IMG/VR virus record: IMGVR_UViG_3300021400_000686
Span: 1-64,000 of that record
DNA length: 64,000 nucleotides
Direction: 5' to 3' (one strand)
Origin: a virus
Taxonomy: Duplodnaviria; Caudoviricetes
The notes below the pieces were generated by a model. That model had not been told where the DNA came from. It did not search any database and worked only from the letters and a program-made list of their open reading frames with translations. Made by a program: the position numbers and the translations under genes. Positions 1 to 53,546 of this stretch are shown here, one piece after another; the first letter of the stretch is position 1; the number at the start of each line of letters is the position of its first letter.

Positions 1-74
1 CCGTGATTGGCCTACCGACAGGACTACCACCGCACTTAAACAGCAATGCCCTTGCGCATGTCGGCTTCGGATTG

Positions 75-166
75 TCGGAACGGAAGGATTCGAACCTCCA
101 TCAAGGCTGTTTCGCGGGACTACGCCTTTCCAAACACCGAAGCTCTGCCGTTGAGCTACGTTCCGA
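75..166 (-). ncRNA. tRNA-like RNA with non-canonical, expanded anticodon region
   Basis: Acceptor CGGAACG/CGTTCCG, D arm GCTC-AACGGCA-GAGC, T arm GGAGG-TTCGAAT-CCTTC; about 42 nt between the D and T arms with no 5-bp/7-nt anticodon arm. Confidence 0.65.
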
Positions 167-3745: not shown

Positions 3746-3756
3746 CTGTATTGCAA

Positions 3757-3827
3757 CTGTCGCAGATGGGCTCGAACCATCGTCCTCCCCTTTATACTGG
3801 GCGCTCGTTCCGCTGAGCTATACGACA
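3757..3827 (-). ncRNA. tRNA-like RNA with a degenerate anticodon arm
   Basis: Acceptor TGTCGTA/TGCGACA, D arm GCTC..GAGC, T arm GATGG-TTCGAGC-CCATC; only 3 bp (CCC/GGG) in the anticodon stem. Confidence 0.6.
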
Positions 3828-3916
3828 ACTTGATACACGGTACGTCTACCGTGCCTTCGGCGATACCCGACGAGAAAAGCACTTGTCTCGGTTCATCCCT
3901 TTTCTCTTATCGCCTA

Positions 3917-28409: not shown

Positions 28410-28785
28410 TCCCCCACTTATCGATTACGGATCGGAAGTCTTCAACATCATGCGGAATAATACAGAACCGAGCCATACCATCAGCGCTCGGATTATATCC
28501 AACGTGGCACAGCTCGTGATACATCAGCTTTTCAAGCCTGTCCGCATCCAACGCCTCGGTGTTTCCAGTGTAAAACGTGATAATGAAGTCCGCCTCTATA
28601 AAAAGCTTCAACTTCTCTTTGACAAGCTCGGTATCTGCAAACACCTCAAGCCCGTTTGACTTTTTTGCTTTGTCGCAATACTGGTAAACAATTCTGCAAT
28701 CAGGATCATCGAGGGCGTTCAGTTCTTTGTATTTTTGAATAACATTTTTGCCAAGCGCATCGAGGTCATCCTCTTGCCAGTACAT
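28327..28785 (-). CDS. Putative phage metallopeptidase
   Basis: HELCH (HExxH) and PHDVEDF motifs. Confidence 0.75.
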   Translation of the reverse strand: MYWQEDDLDALGKNVIQKYKELNALDDPDCRIVYQYCDKAKKSNGLEVFADTELVKEKLKLFIEADFIITFYTGNTEALDADRLEKLMYHELCHVGYNPSADGMARFCIIPHDVEDFRSVIDKWGIDWVKGDDKTGRKRTTKTRRSKVQKQT

Positions 28786-30019
28786 CTGCTTCGTCCCTCC
28801 GACCGTTTGGTGCTATCTCGCGCGGAACTAAGATTTCAGCTTCTCCGTTTGTGAAGACGCTACCGTATGTATCAATCGGCCTGATTTCCGCTTCATAAAT
28901 CACACCGTTCGGATCAGGCGCATGGCCCATGCCGACTTCGCTCCCAGTAAAGGAACCCGCAACGTCTCTGTCAAACGTGTAAGACGAGAACACCGACGCC
29001 TTTTCGTATTCTTTCCCTGTCCCTCCACGATACATCTTGATCGGGGTAACAAGAAACTCGTCAAAGGATAATGGCTCCTTTTTCTTTGCCTCGCAGTCGT
29101 ACTTGTAATTTCCGTACATGATGTTCAGAGCCGCGTTGTGAACCTCGGGGCTTTGAATCATCTGTTTCGTCAGATTGTCCTTATATTCATGGTTGTACGC
29201 TCTGAACCATCCGTCTATGGTTGATTGACTCAAGTTGTCATAAAGGATTTCATCCGCTTCGTCCCGACTGATTTCGTGGAGGTTTTTTGTCACCTTTCCG
29301 AGTTTGAATTTGTAGAATTCCGAATCGATTGCGTCGCTTCCTCCTTCTTCATAAAGGGGCATCAGCTTCCCAACATTCTTGGTTGTAAAGTCGTCAACGC
29401 TATCACCGTCCTCATATTCATAGTCGTCGCGGTTCGGTCTCAATTTCTCGGTCAGATCAGACTTGACTTGTTTTTTCTGATGAACGTATTTGTCGTCCTT
29501 TACCTCAAAGTCGCCTTCTATGTCAGAGCGCCCGTGAGCTTTAAGAATCTGCTTTGCGGTCGCCACCTTTTTTTCGCCGTTTGAGGCTTCGTACTCAAAT
29601 TGATCATCTCCGATCTTTTTATATGCTCTGTCATGAGATACCGCCGTATACCCTGTCGGCATCTCTTCAAGAGACTTGCGAACAGCATCTTTAATTTCGA
29701 ATGAGCTTTTTTCTTTCACCGCATCTTGATAAGCCTTTGTGTACTCGGAAGTGTCAACACTTTTTCCCGTGTCAATCCCCTTCCCCATCTTCTCGGCCTT
29801 CACGCTCTCAGCGGACTTTCCAGTCTTGTTCTCGTACGCTTCCCATGCTTCCCGTGGAGTCATGCCTTCGGTGTTGATCCCCTCAGAATTGCAAAGGCCA
29901 TACGGAAGCTGTGTGCTATATGCACTATGTTTTTTTGCCTTCGGCTTTTCTTCATCGTCAGCGTCCAGTCGTAACAACCATTTAAGCCGTATTTTCTCTA
30001 CAACCTTTGCTTGATTCAT
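28766..30019 (-). CDS. Leader-bearing virion-cargo candidate with a C-terminal ART-like domain
   Basis: IRLKWLLRLDAD leader, LPYG module; MYRG..SSYT..EAEILV (R-S-E). Confidence 0.65.
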   Translation of the reverse strand: MNQAKVVEKIRLKWLLRLDADDEEKPKAKKHSAYSTQLPYGLCNSEGINTEGMTPREAWEAYENKTGKSAESVKAEKMGKGIDTGKSVDTSEYTKAYQDAVKEKSSFEIKDAVRKSLEEMPTGYTAVSHDRAYKKIGDDQFEYEASNGEKKVATAKQILKAHGRSDIEGDFEVKDDKYVHQKKQVKSDLTEKLRPNRDDYEYEDGDSVDDFTTKNVGKLMPLYEEGGSDAIDSEFYKFKLGKVTKNLHEISRDEADEILYDNLSQSTIDGWFRAYNHEYKDNLTKQMIQSPEVHNAALNIMYGNYKYDCEAKKKEPLSFDEFLVTPIKMYRGGTGKEYEKASVFSSYTFDRDVAGSFTGSEVGMGHAPDPNGVIYEAEIRPIDTYGSVFTNGEAEILVPREIAPNGRRDEADVLARG

Positions 30020-46055: not shown

Positions 46056-46083
46056 CTCGATGCATATTGCGTTTTTTCACGAA

Positions 46084-46156
46084 AGCCACCGACAGGATTT
46101 GAACCCGCAACCTACTGATTACAAATCAGTTGCTCTGCCAATTGAGCTAAGATGGC
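46084..46156 (-). tRNA. tRNA-Thr(TGT)
   Basis: Full cloverleaf; anticodon arm ACTGA-TTTGTAA-TCAGT. Confidence 0.9.
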
Positions 46157-46251
46157 TAAATCCACTCTATTGTCAGCGCCGAGTGACTAAGCGCCGTGCT
46201 TTCCCACATTTCTTTCGTCAGGGCCGTGTGCCTGTTACGGCCCCACCGAAT

Positions 46252-48769: not shown

Positions 48770-49495
48770 TTACGGGATTACTGGAACTATATGCGTTCCG
48801 TCCCGTGATAAAATTATTTTCCCCCACTTTGTCGGAACATGTGTATTGGAATCGCCCTTCTTGACCGCCTCACCAATCACTTCCGTATGTTCGAAAAGGA
48901 CTCTAAGATTCCCACTTTCGTAAAGAACCGTTCCCTCTGTAATGTACTTATCCACAAGCTTCTGTACATCCTCTTCTGGAATTGTAAGATAACTCGGATA
49001 CTTCTTTTCCGCAACCCTTTTTTGATATTCTTTTGTGCCGGGGATATGTTCCCTCTGTTTATCCTTTTTCACGGCCTGTGAATAAGTACCTTCTTTAAGC
49101 CTTTCCCCAACGATTTTCTTAAGTTGGTCTTGGCTCATTGCCCTGTACTTATCTCTTTCCGCCTTCGCTTGTTGTTTGGCGCTCTGGCCTTTATTTTGGC
49201 CGTTTTCCGACGTTTTCTTCTCCTCGTCGGTACTTTTATCGCCGTTCTCGTTATCGCGAGGATTTTCAGCCTTTTTGGTTTTTGCCTCTTCCTCGTTCTT
49301 CTCGATCTCCTTGCCGATCTCTCCCCCAAGGCTTCCGTCGTCTTCAAGTGGGACTGGCTGATGGTTTATTGTAATAAACTGCTTCTTAGGATCGTGATTA
49401 ACTATATGAATTTTTTTCTTCCGCTTCTCATCGCGAGCGTCCATCCTTGCAAGATATTTAGTTTTGATTTCTCTGAGAAGCTCGTAAACGTTCAT
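48770..49495 (-). CDS. Leader-bearing polymorphic toxin, Ntox50-like RNase
   Basis: IKTKYLARMDA leader; KQREHIPG..SYLT..IG..T..KI..G.HIVP. Confidence 0.7.
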   Translation of the reverse strand: MNVYELLREIKTKYLARMDARDEKRKKKIHIVNHDPKKQFITINHQPVPLEDDGSLGGEIGKEIEKNEEEAKTKKAENPRDNENGDKSTDEEKKTSENGQNKGQSAKQQAKAERDKYRAMSQDQLKKIVGERLKEGTYSQAVKKDKQREHIPGTKEYQKRVAEKKYPSYLTIPEEDVQKLVDKYITEGTVLYESGNLRVLFEHTEVIGEAVKKGDSNTHVPTKWGKIILSRDGTHIVPVIP

Positions 49496-49508
49496 TTCTT
49501 TCGCCCCT

Positions 49509-49544
49509 AAAAAAATTCAGGGGACATCCGTCCGAACGTCCCCT
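49509..49544 (-). terminator. Intrinsic terminator ending the early operon
   Basis: GGGGAC/GTCCCC hairpin + TGAATTTTTT. Confidence 0.65.
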
Positions 49545-49623
49545 ACACCAATGGCTATTATATATATAGCACGTCATAAAGGTGAATTTCAATGAATTTT
49601 AGTGAACGCGAAGCGACTTTTTT

Positions 49624-49923
49624 TCACTTTTCCATATATAAAATTTGTCCGTCTATCGCATACCCCAAATCAATGTCCACCGCGTCATCATCAAAATCGG
49701 CATCTTTTTCCGCTCCGAGAATTCCGTAAATCTCATCCTCATATCCACTATCGATCAAGCGATGAAGCGTATCCTCTAAGCATCCACCAAGATCAATATA
49801 GGCAATGTCCCCATCTGGTACGATCACATAGTGCTCGAAATACTGTGATGTAACGCCGAACCTACAGACATGTTCGCCTTCCCCACACAACTCCTTTATG
49901 ATCTTATACCCTCTGTCGCTCAT
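49624..49923 (-). CDS. hypothetical protein
   Basis: RBS GGGGG; follows the Cas7-like gene. Confidence 0.55.
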   Translation of the reverse strand: MSDRGYKIIKELCGEGEHVCRFGVTSQYFEHYVIVPDGDIAYIDLGGCLEDTLHRLIDSGYEDEIYGILGAEKDADFDDDAVDIDLGYAIDGQILYMEK

Positions 49924-49938
49924 CGTTTCCCCCCTTCG

Positions 49939-50676
49939 TTATGCAGTCCAAAGCTTTTTCCAAGTGCTCGTCTTAAGATTTCCACCAATCACCTCTCCTT
50001 CCTCGTTAAGGATTTCATAAAGGAACGCACCGCATCCGGAATTCCGCCACTGTAGCATCCCGTTGTACTGGCCATAGTTCAGCCATTCCAAAAGTGCCAT
50101 CACCCACTCTTCATTAAGACAGCGCACCGTGAACTCTACCGTTGACCCAGAAGGAACTGTCTCAGATGACGCAAGCGCTACCCTCGGGCCTTGCGCCGTC
50201 TCCGCACGAAGCGGTCTCTCAATAACCCCCATCTCACCGCTCAACTTAAACTTGATTTTTCTCGGGGCCACAAGAATGCACTGATCCAGAATTTTACGGA
50301 ACGCCTTCAGCTTCTCCGTATGCTTCGCGCTCGCCATTCCTTTACATCTCTGAAGGGAAGAACAAGCCGCCTTGAAGAACCCCCTTACTTGATAATCCCA
50401 CATGAACGGATTTCCGTTTTCGTCTTTTGGAAATACCGTCATTCCCTTGTCGGCAACTTCGTCAACGCCAAGCGCCTCAACCTCTTCTTCCTTTGATAAT
50501 GCGTCTGGTGCCTTGCTTGCGATATACGCTCTATAAACATCCTCTTGCGATGTTGCCGTACCGAGAACATCTGCAATAAATGTCAGACGAACTCTCACAT
50601 CGTACCCGTCGTCACCTGTTTCTCTCTCCGCTTCAAAAGCATTTACAATTGACTCTAACGATCTTGCCATTTTCAT
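49939..50676 (-). CDS. Standalone Cas7/RAMP-like protein
   Basis: VRLTFIADVLGT strand 1, PFMWDYQVRGFFKAAC, ERPLRA..SETVPSGSTVEFTV, G-rich loop GMLQWRNSGCGAF; RBS GGAGGT. Confidence 0.7.
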   Translation of the reverse strand: MKMARSLESIVNAFEAERETGDDGYDVRVRLTFIADVLGTATSQEDVYRAYIASKAPDALSKEEEVEALGVDEVADKGMTVFPKDENGNPFMWDYQVRGFFKAACSSLQRCKGMASAKHTEKLKAFRKILDQCILVAPRKIKFKLSGEMGVIERPLRAETAQGPRVALASSETVPSGSTVEFTVRCLNEEWVMALLEWLNYGQYNGMLQWRNSGCGAFLYEILNEEGEVIGGNLKTSTWKKLWTA

Positions 50677-50686
50677 ACCTCCTTTT

Positions 50687-51210
50687 ACATTACCTTAACC
50701 TTACTACGCATCGCTTTGCTATGCCACTACACCACAAGACGATTCCATTCTTCGCCATACCAATACAAAGCCTTTACGTTACCACGCTTTACTTCACAAC
50801 GCAGAACCTTCGCGTTACCATACTCGGCTTCACCACATACTACTTCACCGATACGTAGCCCCACACCGCGATACCATTCCACTGCCATTACGTAACAACA
50901 CTCAACAGCAACTCGCATTACCGTTCCATAACATCAAATCACACGACTATACCACCGCTTCTCAATACCTCTCTTTTCATAACCAACACAAGACGATTCC
51001 ATACTTCGCCATACCACAGCATTACAGATACATTACTCCGCCGCGCCTCTCGGAACAATTTCAAAACCCAACCTTGCCTGACCGCACGTTACAATGCCAT
51101 GCCTTCACTTCGCGTTACCATTCATTACATGTCCCTACCCTACCAACACAACGCCTTACCGTCCACCGCAGTACCCATAACAAAACAACACCTTGCCTTG
51201 CTATACCATC
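50687..51210 (-). repeat. Non-coding 5-nt periodic array (NN-NGY units, often GGY)
   Basis: 51105->51066 reads AA-GGC AT-GGC AT-TGT AA-CGT GC-GGT CA-GGC AA-GGT TG-GGT; similar runs at 50698-50727, 50776-50810 and 51180-51209. Confidence 0.85.
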
Positions 51211-51967
51211 ACTTAGCAACGGCCATAAAAGCCTTTTCCCAGATACTCGCCTCCTTCTTTGCGAACTCAAGCTCCATCTTCATTGCCTTCACTTCATCAC
51301 TCTCAATCACCTTCTCCACAATCTTATCCTTATAAACGACCTTCTCAACCTCCTTCTCGACCTCGGTAACATTCATGCCAGCGAGGCTCGCGATCTGCTT
51401 GAACAGCGCGTTGTCAATCGACTGCAACGTCGTTTTATCAACCTTACGAGTGTAAACCGACCAAACCCTATGTGGGTTTACAAAGCACTCCTCCCCGTTA
51501 AGATTGAACCGCACGCACGTGTCCGTAATGAACTCGCGCTTCTCGGCAACTTTTCCGATATCCAAGTACACTAACGTATCATAGAATACCTTCAGCACAA
51601 GATACCGTCCCTCGTAAATGCCACCGACAAAGAAATCATTCATCCTCTTCCCCATGATCGCTTCGCCAGCGGTTCTGTCCGTGTAGCCCTCGGCGTTTTT
51701 CATAACATTATCATTTTTCTTTTCGTCCTTCCCCTCGGGCTTTCCAGTCGATCCTTCGTACACGTAGCACCTCTTTCCTTCCGCGTTTTCTCGCTTTACA
51801 ATTCCATGCGACTCAAACTGATTTGCACGGTTGTACATTACGCTCGGCGGAAACCCCGTAAGAACAGATATTTCCGAAATGGTGATTCCCTCTTCACCAT
51901 ATTCCTTTATCGTTTCGACGATCTTCCCCATAACATCGTCTCCGTACTTACTCTTATTACCGCGCAC
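51209..51967 (-). CDS. hypothetical protein with an N-terminal winged-HTH-like region
   Basis: GITISEISVLTGFPPSVMY; coiled-coil C-terminus. Confidence 0.6.
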   Translation of the reverse strand: MRGNKSKYGDDVMGKIVETIKEYGEEGITISEISVLTGFPPSVMYNRANQFESHGIVKRENAEGKRCYVYEGSTGKPEGKDEKKNDNVMKNAEGYTDRTAGEAIMGKRMNDFFVGGIYEGRYLVLKVFYDTLVYLDIGKVAEKREFITDTCVRFNLNGEECFVNPHRVWSVYTRKVDKTTLQSIDNALFKQIASLAGMNVTEVEKEVEKVVYKDKIVEKVIESDEVKAMKMELEFAKKEASIWEKAFMAVAK

Positions 51968-51971
51968 CTAA

Positions 51972-52184
51972 TCACCTCCGAATAATATTGTATTTCCACT
52001 GGCTATCGTTGAAAAACGAGTCGTCCATCAGATTTTTAATTTTCCGAGCGCCGTCCGCATCGTTAGCAAAGACCTCGTGTACAACATCGTCGCTTCGCTC
52101 CACCGTTCCAACGCTAAGTGCCGAGGAAAACACCACCCCACGGCTTTTCTGGTCGTTTGTCAGCTTGTGGTAAATCTTTCTCAT
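51972..52184 (-). CDS. hypothetical protein
   Basis: RBS GGAGG. Confidence 0.6.
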   Translation of the reverse strand: MRKIYHKLTNDQKSRGVVFSSALSVGTVERSDDVVHEVFANDADGARKIKNLMDDSFFNDSQWKYNIIRR

Positions 52185-52194
52185 CCGTACCTCC

Positions 52195-52605
52195 TTACCA
52201 AACCCTTTTCACACCGCCGTTAATAGGCTGAATTCCGATCGTTCCAAACTCACTGCAATCTGGCATATCTACATTCACCCCGTACGCTAAAGCCTGTCCA
52301 TCCTTCAAGTCGGCCATGTCCTCTTTCCACTCTCCCGTCCATTTTGACACGTACAGGAGCTCATAAATCACGCCGTATAGCGTAAGCGTCTTGATCACAT
52401 GATAGACAACTGCTTCGTTCTCGTCCTCGAAGCGCTTGACCATTTTTCGCTCATTCTCGTCGAGCCAATAAAGATATCCTTCGCCTTCGGATAAGTTCAC
52501 TATATTGTACTTCTCGAACTCCGTTACAGTCTGATCTATAATTCCAAGATAACGCAGTCTTTTGACGCCCTCAGCGTGCTGTCTGTCTTTCATGATCTCC
52601 GCCAT
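52195..52605 (-). CDS. Conserved-looking hypothetical protein
   Basis: RBS; SEFGTIGI..GGVKR C-terminus. Confidence 0.6.
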   Translation of the reverse strand: MAEIMKDRQHAEGVKRLRYLGIIDQTVTEFEKYNIVNLSEGEGYLYWLDENERKMVKRFEDENEAVVYHVIKTLTLYGVIYELLYVSKWTGEWKEDMADLKDGQALAYGVNVDMPDCSEFGTIGIQPINGGVKRVW

Positions 52606-53517: not shown

Positions 53518-53546
53518 ATTCTACCACATATTGATCAATATGTCAA
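53518..53546 (-). promoter_or_regulatory. Sigma70 promoter with a perfect 18-bp palindrome ACATATTGATCAATATGT
   Basis: TTGACA-17-TAGAAT; palindrome at 53526-53543. Confidence 0.85.

What the first reader, a model, noticed from the sequence alone, without database searches (positions are those of the whole stretch)
49939..51210. Standalone Cas7/RAMP-like gene with an upstream 5-nt-periodic NN-GGY array: candidate non-CRISPR RNA-guided system
Seen: a 245-aa protein with RAMP hallmarks, including the C-terminal G-rich loop, and no other cas genes or CRISPR array in the window. The ~520 nt directly upstream on the same strand are pentamers with a fixed (G)GY triplet and a variable dinucleotide, e.g. 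AA-GGC AT-GGC AT-TGT AA-CGT GC-GGT CA-GGC AA-GGT TG-GGT. Runs of 6-8 units stay in register, with occasional 1-2 nt slips. The triplet is relaxed to NGY in many units. A period of 5 does not fit coding sequence. Established: Cas7 polymerises along guide RNA with a fixed nucleotide step per subunit. Inference: each subunit grips one GY-containing triplet and displays the NN bases, so the array encodes gapped guides for DNA or RNA recognition, for example repressing rival phages. I recall a recently reported phage system of this kind (VIPR, GGY/NN repeats) but cannot verify the match here.
Basis: partly seen in the sequence, partly recalled or inferred. Interest (0 to 1): 0.93.

Follow-up and report, generated by a model that had tools for sequence, protein, structure and literature searches.

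The report
Phage VIPR guide-RNA system
An 88-kb gut phage carries a lone Cas7-like protein gene directly behind a 520-base array of five-letter repeats, which fits the VIPR RNA-guided silencing system published in 2026 preprints, so it is a real but already described kind of system.

Summary

This matches VIPR (Vipr protein plus vrRNA array; bioRxiv 10.64898/2026.04.26.720920 and .720927). In 161 of 163 homologous loci the gene is flanked on its own strand by such an array. A profile comparison links the family to SUSP1 Vipr (E 6e-5), with the guanine-stacking Trp and the pyrimidine-pocket Arg of the G-loop conserved.

This clade differs from the characterised type II in four ways:
- The unit is relaxed to Y-NN-(G)-G.
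- The array is cut by +1 slips into about 16 modules of 5-9 units, each usually opening with Y-NNN-GG.
- No tail was found.
- No conserved accessory gene was found.

The variable dinucleotides look like codon positions 1-2, as the published one-base-skip rule predicts. No natural target was found, and expression is untested.

The scan already holds 153 VIPR-like findings on other DNA. Verdict: new member of a known kind.

The parts
49939..50670 (-). vipr gene: 243-aa lone RAMP (Cas7-like) protein. An alternative start at 50676 gives 245 aa.
50023..50061 (-). G-rich loop (residues 204-216, G-M-L-Q-W-R-N-S-G-C-G-A-F)
   Evidence: G204, Q207, W208, R209 and G214 are invariant in 42 homologs. The loop aligns to the SUSP1 Vipr G-loop: D177->Q207, W178->W208, R179->R209. 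The roles of these residues come from cryo-EM. It also aligns to the Csm4 / type VII Cas7 G-loops, E 9e-4.
50155..50229 (-). Long beta-hairpin (residues 148-172), read as the RAMP thumb
   Evidence: Strands 148-158 and 161-172 in the model. Conserved RPLRAxTxQGxRVALAxSE. Calling it the thumb is inference from Cas7 architecture.
50678..50684 (-). Shine-Dalgarno AAGGAGG of vipr
   Evidence: Read from the sequence: 7 nt before the ATG at 50670.
50688..51210 (-). vrRNA array: about 100 pentamers Y-NN-(G)-G in about 16 modules of 5-9 units, separated by single extra bases
   Evidence: Period 5, z 8.7. Parse and position frequencies. Only such region in the genome. Arrays flank homologs in 161 of 163 loci. 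No Rfam family. Fold z -1.5.
51062..51107 (-). Example module: slip T, then 9 units (NN = AA AT AT AA GC CA AA TG TT).
   Evidence: The IMG/VR scan of its xNN pattern gave 3 hits that read as chance.
50989..51019 (-). Module with the conserved 27-nt core GTATGGCGAAGTATGGAATCGTCTTGT (copy 1)
   Evidence: The same core is the only array stretch shared with the closest relative L081.
50730..50765 (-). Near-duplicate module (copy 2 of the 27-nt core)
51209..51967 (-). Upstream 252-aa gene with a weak N-terminal winged-helix signal. It is a neighbour and only a weak candidate for an accessory (vap-like) gene.
   Evidence: HTH_IclR E 0.003, MarR_2 E 0.02. Csa3 wHTH E 2.5e-4. Shared only with the syntenic phage L081 at 51% identity. 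Not conserved next to vipr in the family.
49624..49923 (-). Downstream 99-aa ORF, last gene before the terminator
   Evidence: 54% identical to a gene in L081 only. No family hit.
49518..49545 (-). Intrinsic-terminator-like hairpin (12 pairs) plus a T run. Likely end of the operon.
53518..53546 (-). Promoter TTGACA-17-TAGAAT with the palindrome ATATTGATCAATAT in the spacer. Likely start of the ~4-kb operon that ends with the array and vipr.
   Evidence: Sequence. The motif recurs at 6 or more places in the genome. Its role as this operon's promoter is inferred.

Best explanation
This is a VIPR system (Viral Interference Programmable Repeat) of a ruminant- or animal-gut phage.

Proposed mechanism:
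- The array 50688-51210 is transcribed on the minus strand. It probably belongs to an early operon that runs from the operator-controlled promoter at about 53546 to the terminator at 49518.
- Copies of the 243-aa RAMP protein (Vipr) bind the RNA one per pentamer. They sequester the G and Y letters with the G-loop (W208, R209) and the thumb hairpin, and they expose the two variable bases.
- The exposed dinucleotides pair with double-stranded DNA that reads NN-x-NN-x (one base skipped). Typically this is a coding sequence with the skip at the wobble position, and binding silences the gene. The likely targets are competing phages, satellites or other mobile DNA in the same host.

Shown here: the RAMP fold, the conserved G-loop, the period-5 array, the near-universal pairing of gene and array, the viral context, and the codon-like make-up of the NN letters.

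Taken from the SUSP1 and P. fulva experiments and inferred for this clade: filament assembly, the one-base skip, DNA rather than RNA as the target, and silencing as the outcome.

This clade is a relaxed variant. The first G is only 43-52% G, and the G-loop Asp that reads it in SUSP1 is an invariant Gln here. The array is punctuated into short modules that usually open with a six-base Y-NNN-GG unit.
For: Fold:
- The unbiased PDB search returns CRISPR RAMPs in the top 38 rows.
- The BFVD top hit at 51% identity is already labelled a RAMP superfamily protein.

Link to the characterised Vipr:
- I located the SUSP1 locus (vipr 28474-29061, arrays on both sides).
- The profile-profile alignment is end to end: E 6e-5, probability 65%, 183 columns.
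- Reciprocal HMM hits are weak but consistent.
- The G-loop W and R that hold G2 and Y3 in the cryo-EM structure are invariant here.

Array:
- Period 5, z 8.7.
- 18 slips against 51 +/- 7 in shuffles.
- It is unique in the genome.

Association:
- 82 of 83 viral or metagenome loci have a same-strand array directly upstream or downstream; 0 of 10,474 distant windows do.
- This replicates in 79 of 80 bacterial-genome loci; 9 of 4,488 distant windows do.

Guide-like behaviour:
- The closest relative (protein 88% identical) has an almost wholly different array.
- The NN dinucleotides fit sense codon positions 1-2 (r 0.76; log-likelihood -256 against -272 to -316 for other phases or strands and -283 for uniform). 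The paper reports the same for natural targets.

Context:
- No cas genes or CRISPR array.
- The record is a virus, about 90% complete.
Against: - Sequence homology to SUSP1 Vipr is distant (hhalign probability 65%; HMM hits 8-16 bits).
- Only 22% of units are canonical YNNGG.
- In-register runs are 5-9 units, against 13-17 in SUSP1.
- The one-base-skip rule is untested for this clade.
- The closest solved folds are RNA-targeting Cas7s.
Confidence: 0.85

Rival explanations
1. Same two parts, but the complex targets RNA rather than DNA. The Vipr-like filament on the array RNA would bind or cleave transcripts of rivals or of the host, as type III and type VII Cas7 backbones do.
For: The closest solved folds are Csm3, Cmr4, type VII Cas7 and Cas7-11, all RNA-targeting. 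All NN letters look like sense-strand codons. Sense-copy guides would not pair with mRNA, but they would pair with antisense or template strands, so orientation alone does not settle the question.
Against: The characterised VIPRs bind dsDNA on either strand. A guide that copies the sense strand cannot pair with the mRNA of that gene. No Csm3-type catalytic context or partner nuclease is present in the locus.
Confidence: 0.07
2. The array is a guide-less decoy or regulatory RNA: a sponge of short Vipr-binding modules that titrates the Vipr of rival phages or autoregulates the phage's own vipr. It would not be a set of specific guides.
For: Modules are short (10-18 specified bases) and degenerate. 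The array lies in the 5' leader of vipr on the same transcript. Satellites are reported to use solo vrRNAs to redirect a phage's VIPR.
Against: Arrays diverge almost completely between close relatives while the protein stays 88% identical. The NN letters have a codon-like composition. Both features are expected of guides under diversifying selection and not of a sponge, which needs only the constant letters.
Confidence: 0.05
3. The tract works as DNA, not RNA: a phased G-tract element (half-helical-turn spacing) bound by a phage protein, for example a packaging, replication or partition site next to the terminase region. The RAMP-like gene would be unrelated to it.
For: The tract lies between the early genes and the terminase module, next to a gene with a weak winged-helix signal.
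Against: The tract follows the RAMP gene, on its strand, through unrelated phage backbones and both flank positions in 161 of 163 loci. The winged-helix neighbour is not conserved. The strand asymmetry (G 37%, C 10%) fits an RNA product.
Confidence: 0.02

Closest known systems
Type II VIPR of Escherichia phage SUSP1 (Vipr, vap1, four vrRNAs; bioRxiv 10.64898/2026.04.26.720920, .720927, 10.64898/2026.10.15.759431; PDB 36pp)
   Same: - Phage-encoded lone RAMP protein of about 200-240 aa with RRM core, thumb hairpin and a G-loop of the form G-x-G-x-W-R-(3-4 residues)-G-x-F.
- A same-strand array of 5-nt repeats with conserved G/Y letters and variable NN.
- No cas genes and no CRISPR array.
- NN letters that look like codon positions 1-2.

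   Different: - Protein identity is about 20%.
- The G1-reading Asp177 is Gln207 here.
- The repeat is relaxed: canonical YNNGG is 22% here against 73% in SUSP1.
- Runs are 5-9 units broken by +1 slips, instead of 13-17 unbroken units.
- There is one continuous 520-nt array in the vipr leader, rather than separate ~100-nt vrRNAs each with a leader and a pseudoknot tail.
- There is no vap1 homolog.
Other VIPR types of the same preprint (types I, III-VII: repeats NNNGG, YNNNG, NNNNG; staggered arrays with vrRNAs offset by 1 nt; one type apparently without a vap)
   Same: The relaxed Y-NNN-G-like unit, abutting modules offset by one base and the absence of a tail match these descriptions in words.
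   Different: The figures and tables that define the types are not held, so I could not assign a type. I also could not tell whether the Y-NNN-GG module opener and the 5-7-unit module length are already described.
Cas7 backbone subunits of class 1 CRISPR effectors (Csm3, Cmr4, type VII Cas7, Csf2)
   Different: - The step is 5 nt, not 6.
- There is no Cas5, Cas6, large or small subunit and no CRISPR repeat-spacer array.
- The guide is noncontiguous.
- Sequence similarity is limited to the G-loop.

Membership tests
VIPR (Vipr + vrRNA) | Sequence homology to a characterised Vipr (SUSP1 Vipr, PDB 36pp) | tested here: met
   hhalign of 107 family members against 31 SUSP1-clade members: E 6e-5, probability 65%, 183 columns end to end, with W178/R179 aligned to invariant W208/R209. 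Single-sequence BLASTP is not significant. The relationship is distant; the paper's own route, PSI-BLAST from X1U2U4, could not be run.
VIPR (Vipr + vrRNA) | Adjacent array of at least 4 tandem YNNGG units, or the related NNNGG, YNNNG or NNNNG units | tested here: met
   About 100 units on the gene's strand directly upstream: position 5 is G in 85-95%, position 1 is Y in 73-75%, position 4 is G in 43-52%. The same holds in 161 of 163 homologous loci.
VIPR (Vipr + vrRNA) | Minimal locus without other cas genes or a CRISPR array, mostly viral or proviral | tested here: met
   Virus record of 88,332 bp. No CRISPR-like repeats. No PADLOC cas hit on the gene or its neighbours apart from a weak wHTH match.
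VIPR (Vipr + vrRNA) | Accessory gene (vap) conserved next to vipr | tested here: not met
   No neighbouring gene family occurs in more than 29 of 84 loci. The window's neighbours are shared only with the syntenic phage L081. There is no similarity to SUSP1 vap1. The paper says 'typically', and it names six vap genes for seven types, so a vap is not required for membership.
VIPR (Vipr + vrRNA) | vrRNA with a conserved structured 3' tail (type II) | tested here: inconclusive
   No repeated tail-like element, no Rfam hit and a fold z of -1.5. The paper describes tail-less staggered arrays, so absence does not exclude membership.
VIPR (Vipr + vrRNA) | vrRNAs are expressed and bound by Vipr | not testable with these tools
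   This needs small-RNA sequencing and a pull-down.
VIPR (Vipr + vrRNA) | NN letters match natural DNA targets under the one-base-skip rule | tested here: inconclusive
   The NN composition fits sense codon positions 1-2. No target stood above chance in 1.2 Mb of related phages, or in four IMG/VR pattern scans, three of which gave chance-level hits and one none.
CRISPR-Cas (class 1) | Repeat-spacer array and a multi-gene effector (Cas5, Cas7, large subunit) with or without an adaptation module | tested here: not met
   No CRISPR-like array. A single RAMP gene in the genome. The neighbours are not cas genes.

The most novel reading that the evidence does not exclude
This large gut-phage clade may run a distinct VIPR grammar that is not yet described. 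In this reading there are no long tailed vrRNAs. Instead, one leader array is punctuated every 5-9 units by a six-base opener. That opener is Y-NNN-GG in the window (14 of 17 module starts) and C-AAN-GG across the family (GG 92-98%). Internal units keep only G2 and a non-G at Y3. This matches a G-loop in which the G1-reading Asp is an invariant Gln. Each short module would be a separate tail-less guide, or a nucleation point for a 6-8-subunit filament, working without any accessory protein.
Probability: 0.3. Interest if true: 0.5.

Novelty: new member of a known kind. Interest (0 to 1): 0.35.

Why it matters
VIPR is a months-old discovery: a second, noncontiguous logic of RNA-guided DNA recognition that may predate CRISPR. 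This locus does not change that picture.

It does show that one Vipr clade is very common. I counted 1,622 clusters at 50% identity, at least 575 IMG/VR contigs and 170 GTDB species genomes, mostly gut Clostridia. Its repeats and G-loop vary together: G1 is relaxed and Asp is replaced by Gln.

That gives a natural test of which protein-RNA contacts set the repeat code. It also offers a compact, vap-less, tail-less system that could be simpler to reprogram. If the punctuated short-module layout proves to be new, it would bear on how vrRNAs are measured and processed.

Tried and rejected
Family and RNA libraries:
- Pfam, PHROGs, PADLOC and NCBIfam do not hit the protein.
- Rfam finds nothing in 49500-52500, including hammerhead ribozymes.
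- Tandem Repeats Finder misses the array because the units are too degenerate.
- Profile A1 finds nothing in the SUSP1 genome, and BLASTP to SUSP1 Vipr gives E 0.1. Only profile-profile comparison links the two families.
- PDB 36pp (SUSP1 Vipr) is found by sequence but is not in the fold libraries, so no direct structural superposition was possible.

Target hunts:
- Ten-unit windows against 0.76 Mb of related phages gave one 9-unit perfect match in L055. The same pattern has 46 IMG/VR matches, all AT-rich K/I/E helices with no flank extension, so I read it as chance.
- The pattern around 50857 had 0 hits.
- Modules 51106 and 50852 had 3 and 16 hits, mostly out of frame, with no locus hit by two long modules.
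- No skip length from 0 to 3, with NN or NNN read as the variable letters, beat shuffled guides in 1.2 Mb.
- Hand-decoding the modules as degenerate peptides gave no convincing motif.

Sequencing runs:
- No RNA holder is listed for the stretch.
- Contigs laid from four gut runs cover the array only in part. Eight variants and one 5-nt deletion were too few to test NN hypervariability.

Rejected reading: the tract as coding sequence. It has no long ORF and a period of 5.

Not run: complex prediction, because a filament without its RNA is a poor test.

Full report
**What is there**

The window is part of an IMG/VR virus record of 88,332 bp, estimated about 90% complete. Almost all genes lie on the minus strand.

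At 49939-50676 (-) there is a 245-aa ORF. The second ATG (50670) lies 7 nt after an AAGGAGG, and the database copy is 243 aa, so I take 49939-50670 as the gene.

Directly upstream on the same strand, from the stop codon of a 252-aa gene (51209-51211) to the ribosome-binding site, lie about 520 nt without a long ORF.

**The array**

- The tract is G 37% and C 10%. Its autocorrelation peaks at lags 5 (z 8.7), 10, 15, 21 and 26.
- A register parse gives 103 pentamers and 18 slip bases; shuffles need 51 +/- 7.
- With the phase anchored on a single G, the unit reads position 1 Y 73%, positions 2-3 variable (mostly R then W), position 4 G 43%, position 5 G 95%.
- Only 22% of units are canonical YNNGG, against 73% in SUSP1.
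- It is the only period-5 region in the genome.
- It matches no Rfam family and does not fold better than shuffles (z -1.5).

**The protein**

- No profile library names it.
- With 41 homologs the AlphaFold model has pLDDT 81.5.
- Foldseek's best PDB matches are all Cas7-type RAMPs (E 4e-7).
- A search of 48,161 representative chains, run without Foldseek, puts CRISPR RAMPs in all of the top 38 rows.
- The C-terminal loop G204-x-x-Q207-W208-R209-x-x-x-x-G214-x-F216 is invariant or nearly so. It aligns with Csm4 and Cas7 G-loops even at sequence level (E 9e-4).
- The long hairpin 148-172 is the likely thumb. This is inference.

**Is the pairing of gene and array real?**

The family is large:
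- 862 hits in the 90% clusters.
- 1,622 representatives at 50% identity.
- At least 575 IMG/VR contigs.
- 170 GTDB species genomes, mostly gut Clostridia but also Bacteroidota and Actinomycetota.

In 82 of 83 viral or metagenome loci a period-5, G-over-C tract lies on the gene's strand directly upstream (32 loci), downstream (48) or on both sides (2). The one exception is cut 8 nt before the gene. None of 10,474 windows more than 2 kb away reaches the threshold. The independent set from bacterial genomes gives 79 of 80, with 9 of 4,488 distant windows reaching it.

No other neighbouring gene is conserved; the best occurs in 29 of 84 loci. The window's flanking genes are shared only with the syntenic phage L081, while vipr plus array sits in unrelated backbones in L082 and L083. 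Gene plus array is therefore the unit.

**Comparison with what is known**

VIPR systems were reported in April 2026:
- a lone RAMP protein, Vipr;
- vrRNAs of alternating GGY/NN;
- recognition of dsDNA with one base skipped per unit;
- targets in rival phages and satellites;
- seven types, some with NNNGG, YNNNG or NNNNG units, staggered or ribozyme-spaced arrays, and varied accessory genes.

I located the reference locus in phage SUSP1: vipr at 28474-29061, vap1 next to it, and clean 13-17-unit arrays on both sides. PDB 36pp is its Vipr.

Our family's profile aligns end to end with the SUSP1 clade's (E 6e-5, probability 65%). Reciprocal HMM hits are weak but consistent.

The cryo-EM paper assigns G1 to H17 and D177, G2 to R138 and W178, and Y3 to R179. 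In the alignment W178 and R179 correspond to the invariant W208 and R209, while D177 corresponds to an invariant Q207. This agrees with the array: G2 and Y are kept and G1 is relaxed. The match between protein and RNA is an inference from a distant alignment, though the G-loop is its most confident part.

**Features of this clade**

- Across 82 family arrays (8,181 units), the runs between +1 slips cluster at 5-7 units.
- The slip context is conserved: G | C (86%) | A A N G (92%) G (98%).
- In the window, 14 of 17 module starts read Y-NNN-GG, against GG in 32 of 89 other units (Fisher p 8e-4).
- The array therefore looks like about 16 short modules, each opened by a six-base unit. This may be the 'staggered array' of the preprint, whose figure I cannot see.
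- Two modules (51019-50989 and 50765-50730) share a 27-nt core. It is also the only array stretch conserved in the closest relative, whose Vipr is 88% identical while the rest of its array is unalignable.

**Guide content**

The NN dinucleotides fit sense codon positions 1-2 of the phage's own genes far better than any other phase or strand (r 0.76). This is what the one-base-skip rule with the skip at the wobble position predicts.

I could not name a target. A 9-unit perfect match in a related phage proved to be one of 46 AT-rich chance matches. Three further IMG/VR scans gave nothing or chance hits without convergence. No skip rule beat shuffled guides locally. Modules of 10-18 specified bases are too short for database-wide searches with exact patterns.

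**Expression context (inferred)**

A consensus-like promoter with a palindromic operator sits at 53546-53518. It is one of several copies in the genome. A strong terminator lies at 49545-49518. Together they bracket a ~4-kb operon whose last members are the 252-aa gene, the array, vipr and a 99-aa ORF.

No RNA run holds the stretch. DNA holders are gut metagenomes, including goat and sheep.

**Verdict**

The locus is a member of the published VIPR class, in a relaxed, punctuated, vap-less form. The scan has already logged 153 VIPR-like findings in at least 127 genomes. It is a sound annotation with modest extra value, not a new kind of system.

Noticed in passing
window 53518-53546 (-); further copies at about 6301 and 55330 in the window and at about 81341, 82654 and 84220 in the genome beyond it: A ~30-nt promoter/operator is repeated six or more times: TTGACA, a spacer holding the palindrome ATATTGATCAATAT, then TAGAAT. 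It looks like a set of early promoters under one repressor.
   Followed up: partly
window 48770-49495 (-): A 241-aa protein with a C-terminal Ntox50 toxin domain (Pfam E 1.4e-14) lies just after the vipr operon and before the small and large terminase genes. It is conserved at 62% identity in the syntenic phage L081.
   Followed up: no
L081, L082, L083 (metagenome contigs): Vipr proteins 88%, 83% and 73% identical to the window's sit in different phage backbones: next to N6/N4 methyltransferases in L082 and next to an integrase/cI-like module in L083. The array is upstream in two and downstream in one. The gene-plus-array module seems to move between phages.
   Followed up: partly
L138 and L139 (one 86-kb Oscillospiraceae MAG contig, JAGCAN010000001.1, at 22-29 kb and 70-77 kb): Two copies of the Vipr gene with the same match statistics lie about 48 kb apart on one contig. 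This could be a long repeat, a concatemer or a circular phage assembled twice.
   Followed up: no
window 74-165, 239-315, 2079-2149, 3756-3828, 46083-46157 (-): ARAGORN calls five tRNA genes, among them Phe with anticodon AAA and Tyr with anticodon ATA. These unmodified-A anticodons are unusual. One tRNA-Pro is 92 nt long.
   Followed up: no
window 50605-50670 (-), residues 1-22 of Vipr: The window's subclade (16 close homologs) has an extra N-terminal helix of about 22 residues. Most of the family lacks it and starts at the first beta strand.
   Followed up: no
window 50449-50535 (-), residues 46-74 of Vipr: The segment A-P-D-A...E-E-E-V-E-A-x-G is strongly conserved, but the model has pLDDT below 50 there. 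It may order only on RNA, DNA or a neighbouring subunit, and it could be the counterpart of the helical bundle that holds the skipped base in SUSP1 Vipr.
   Followed up: no
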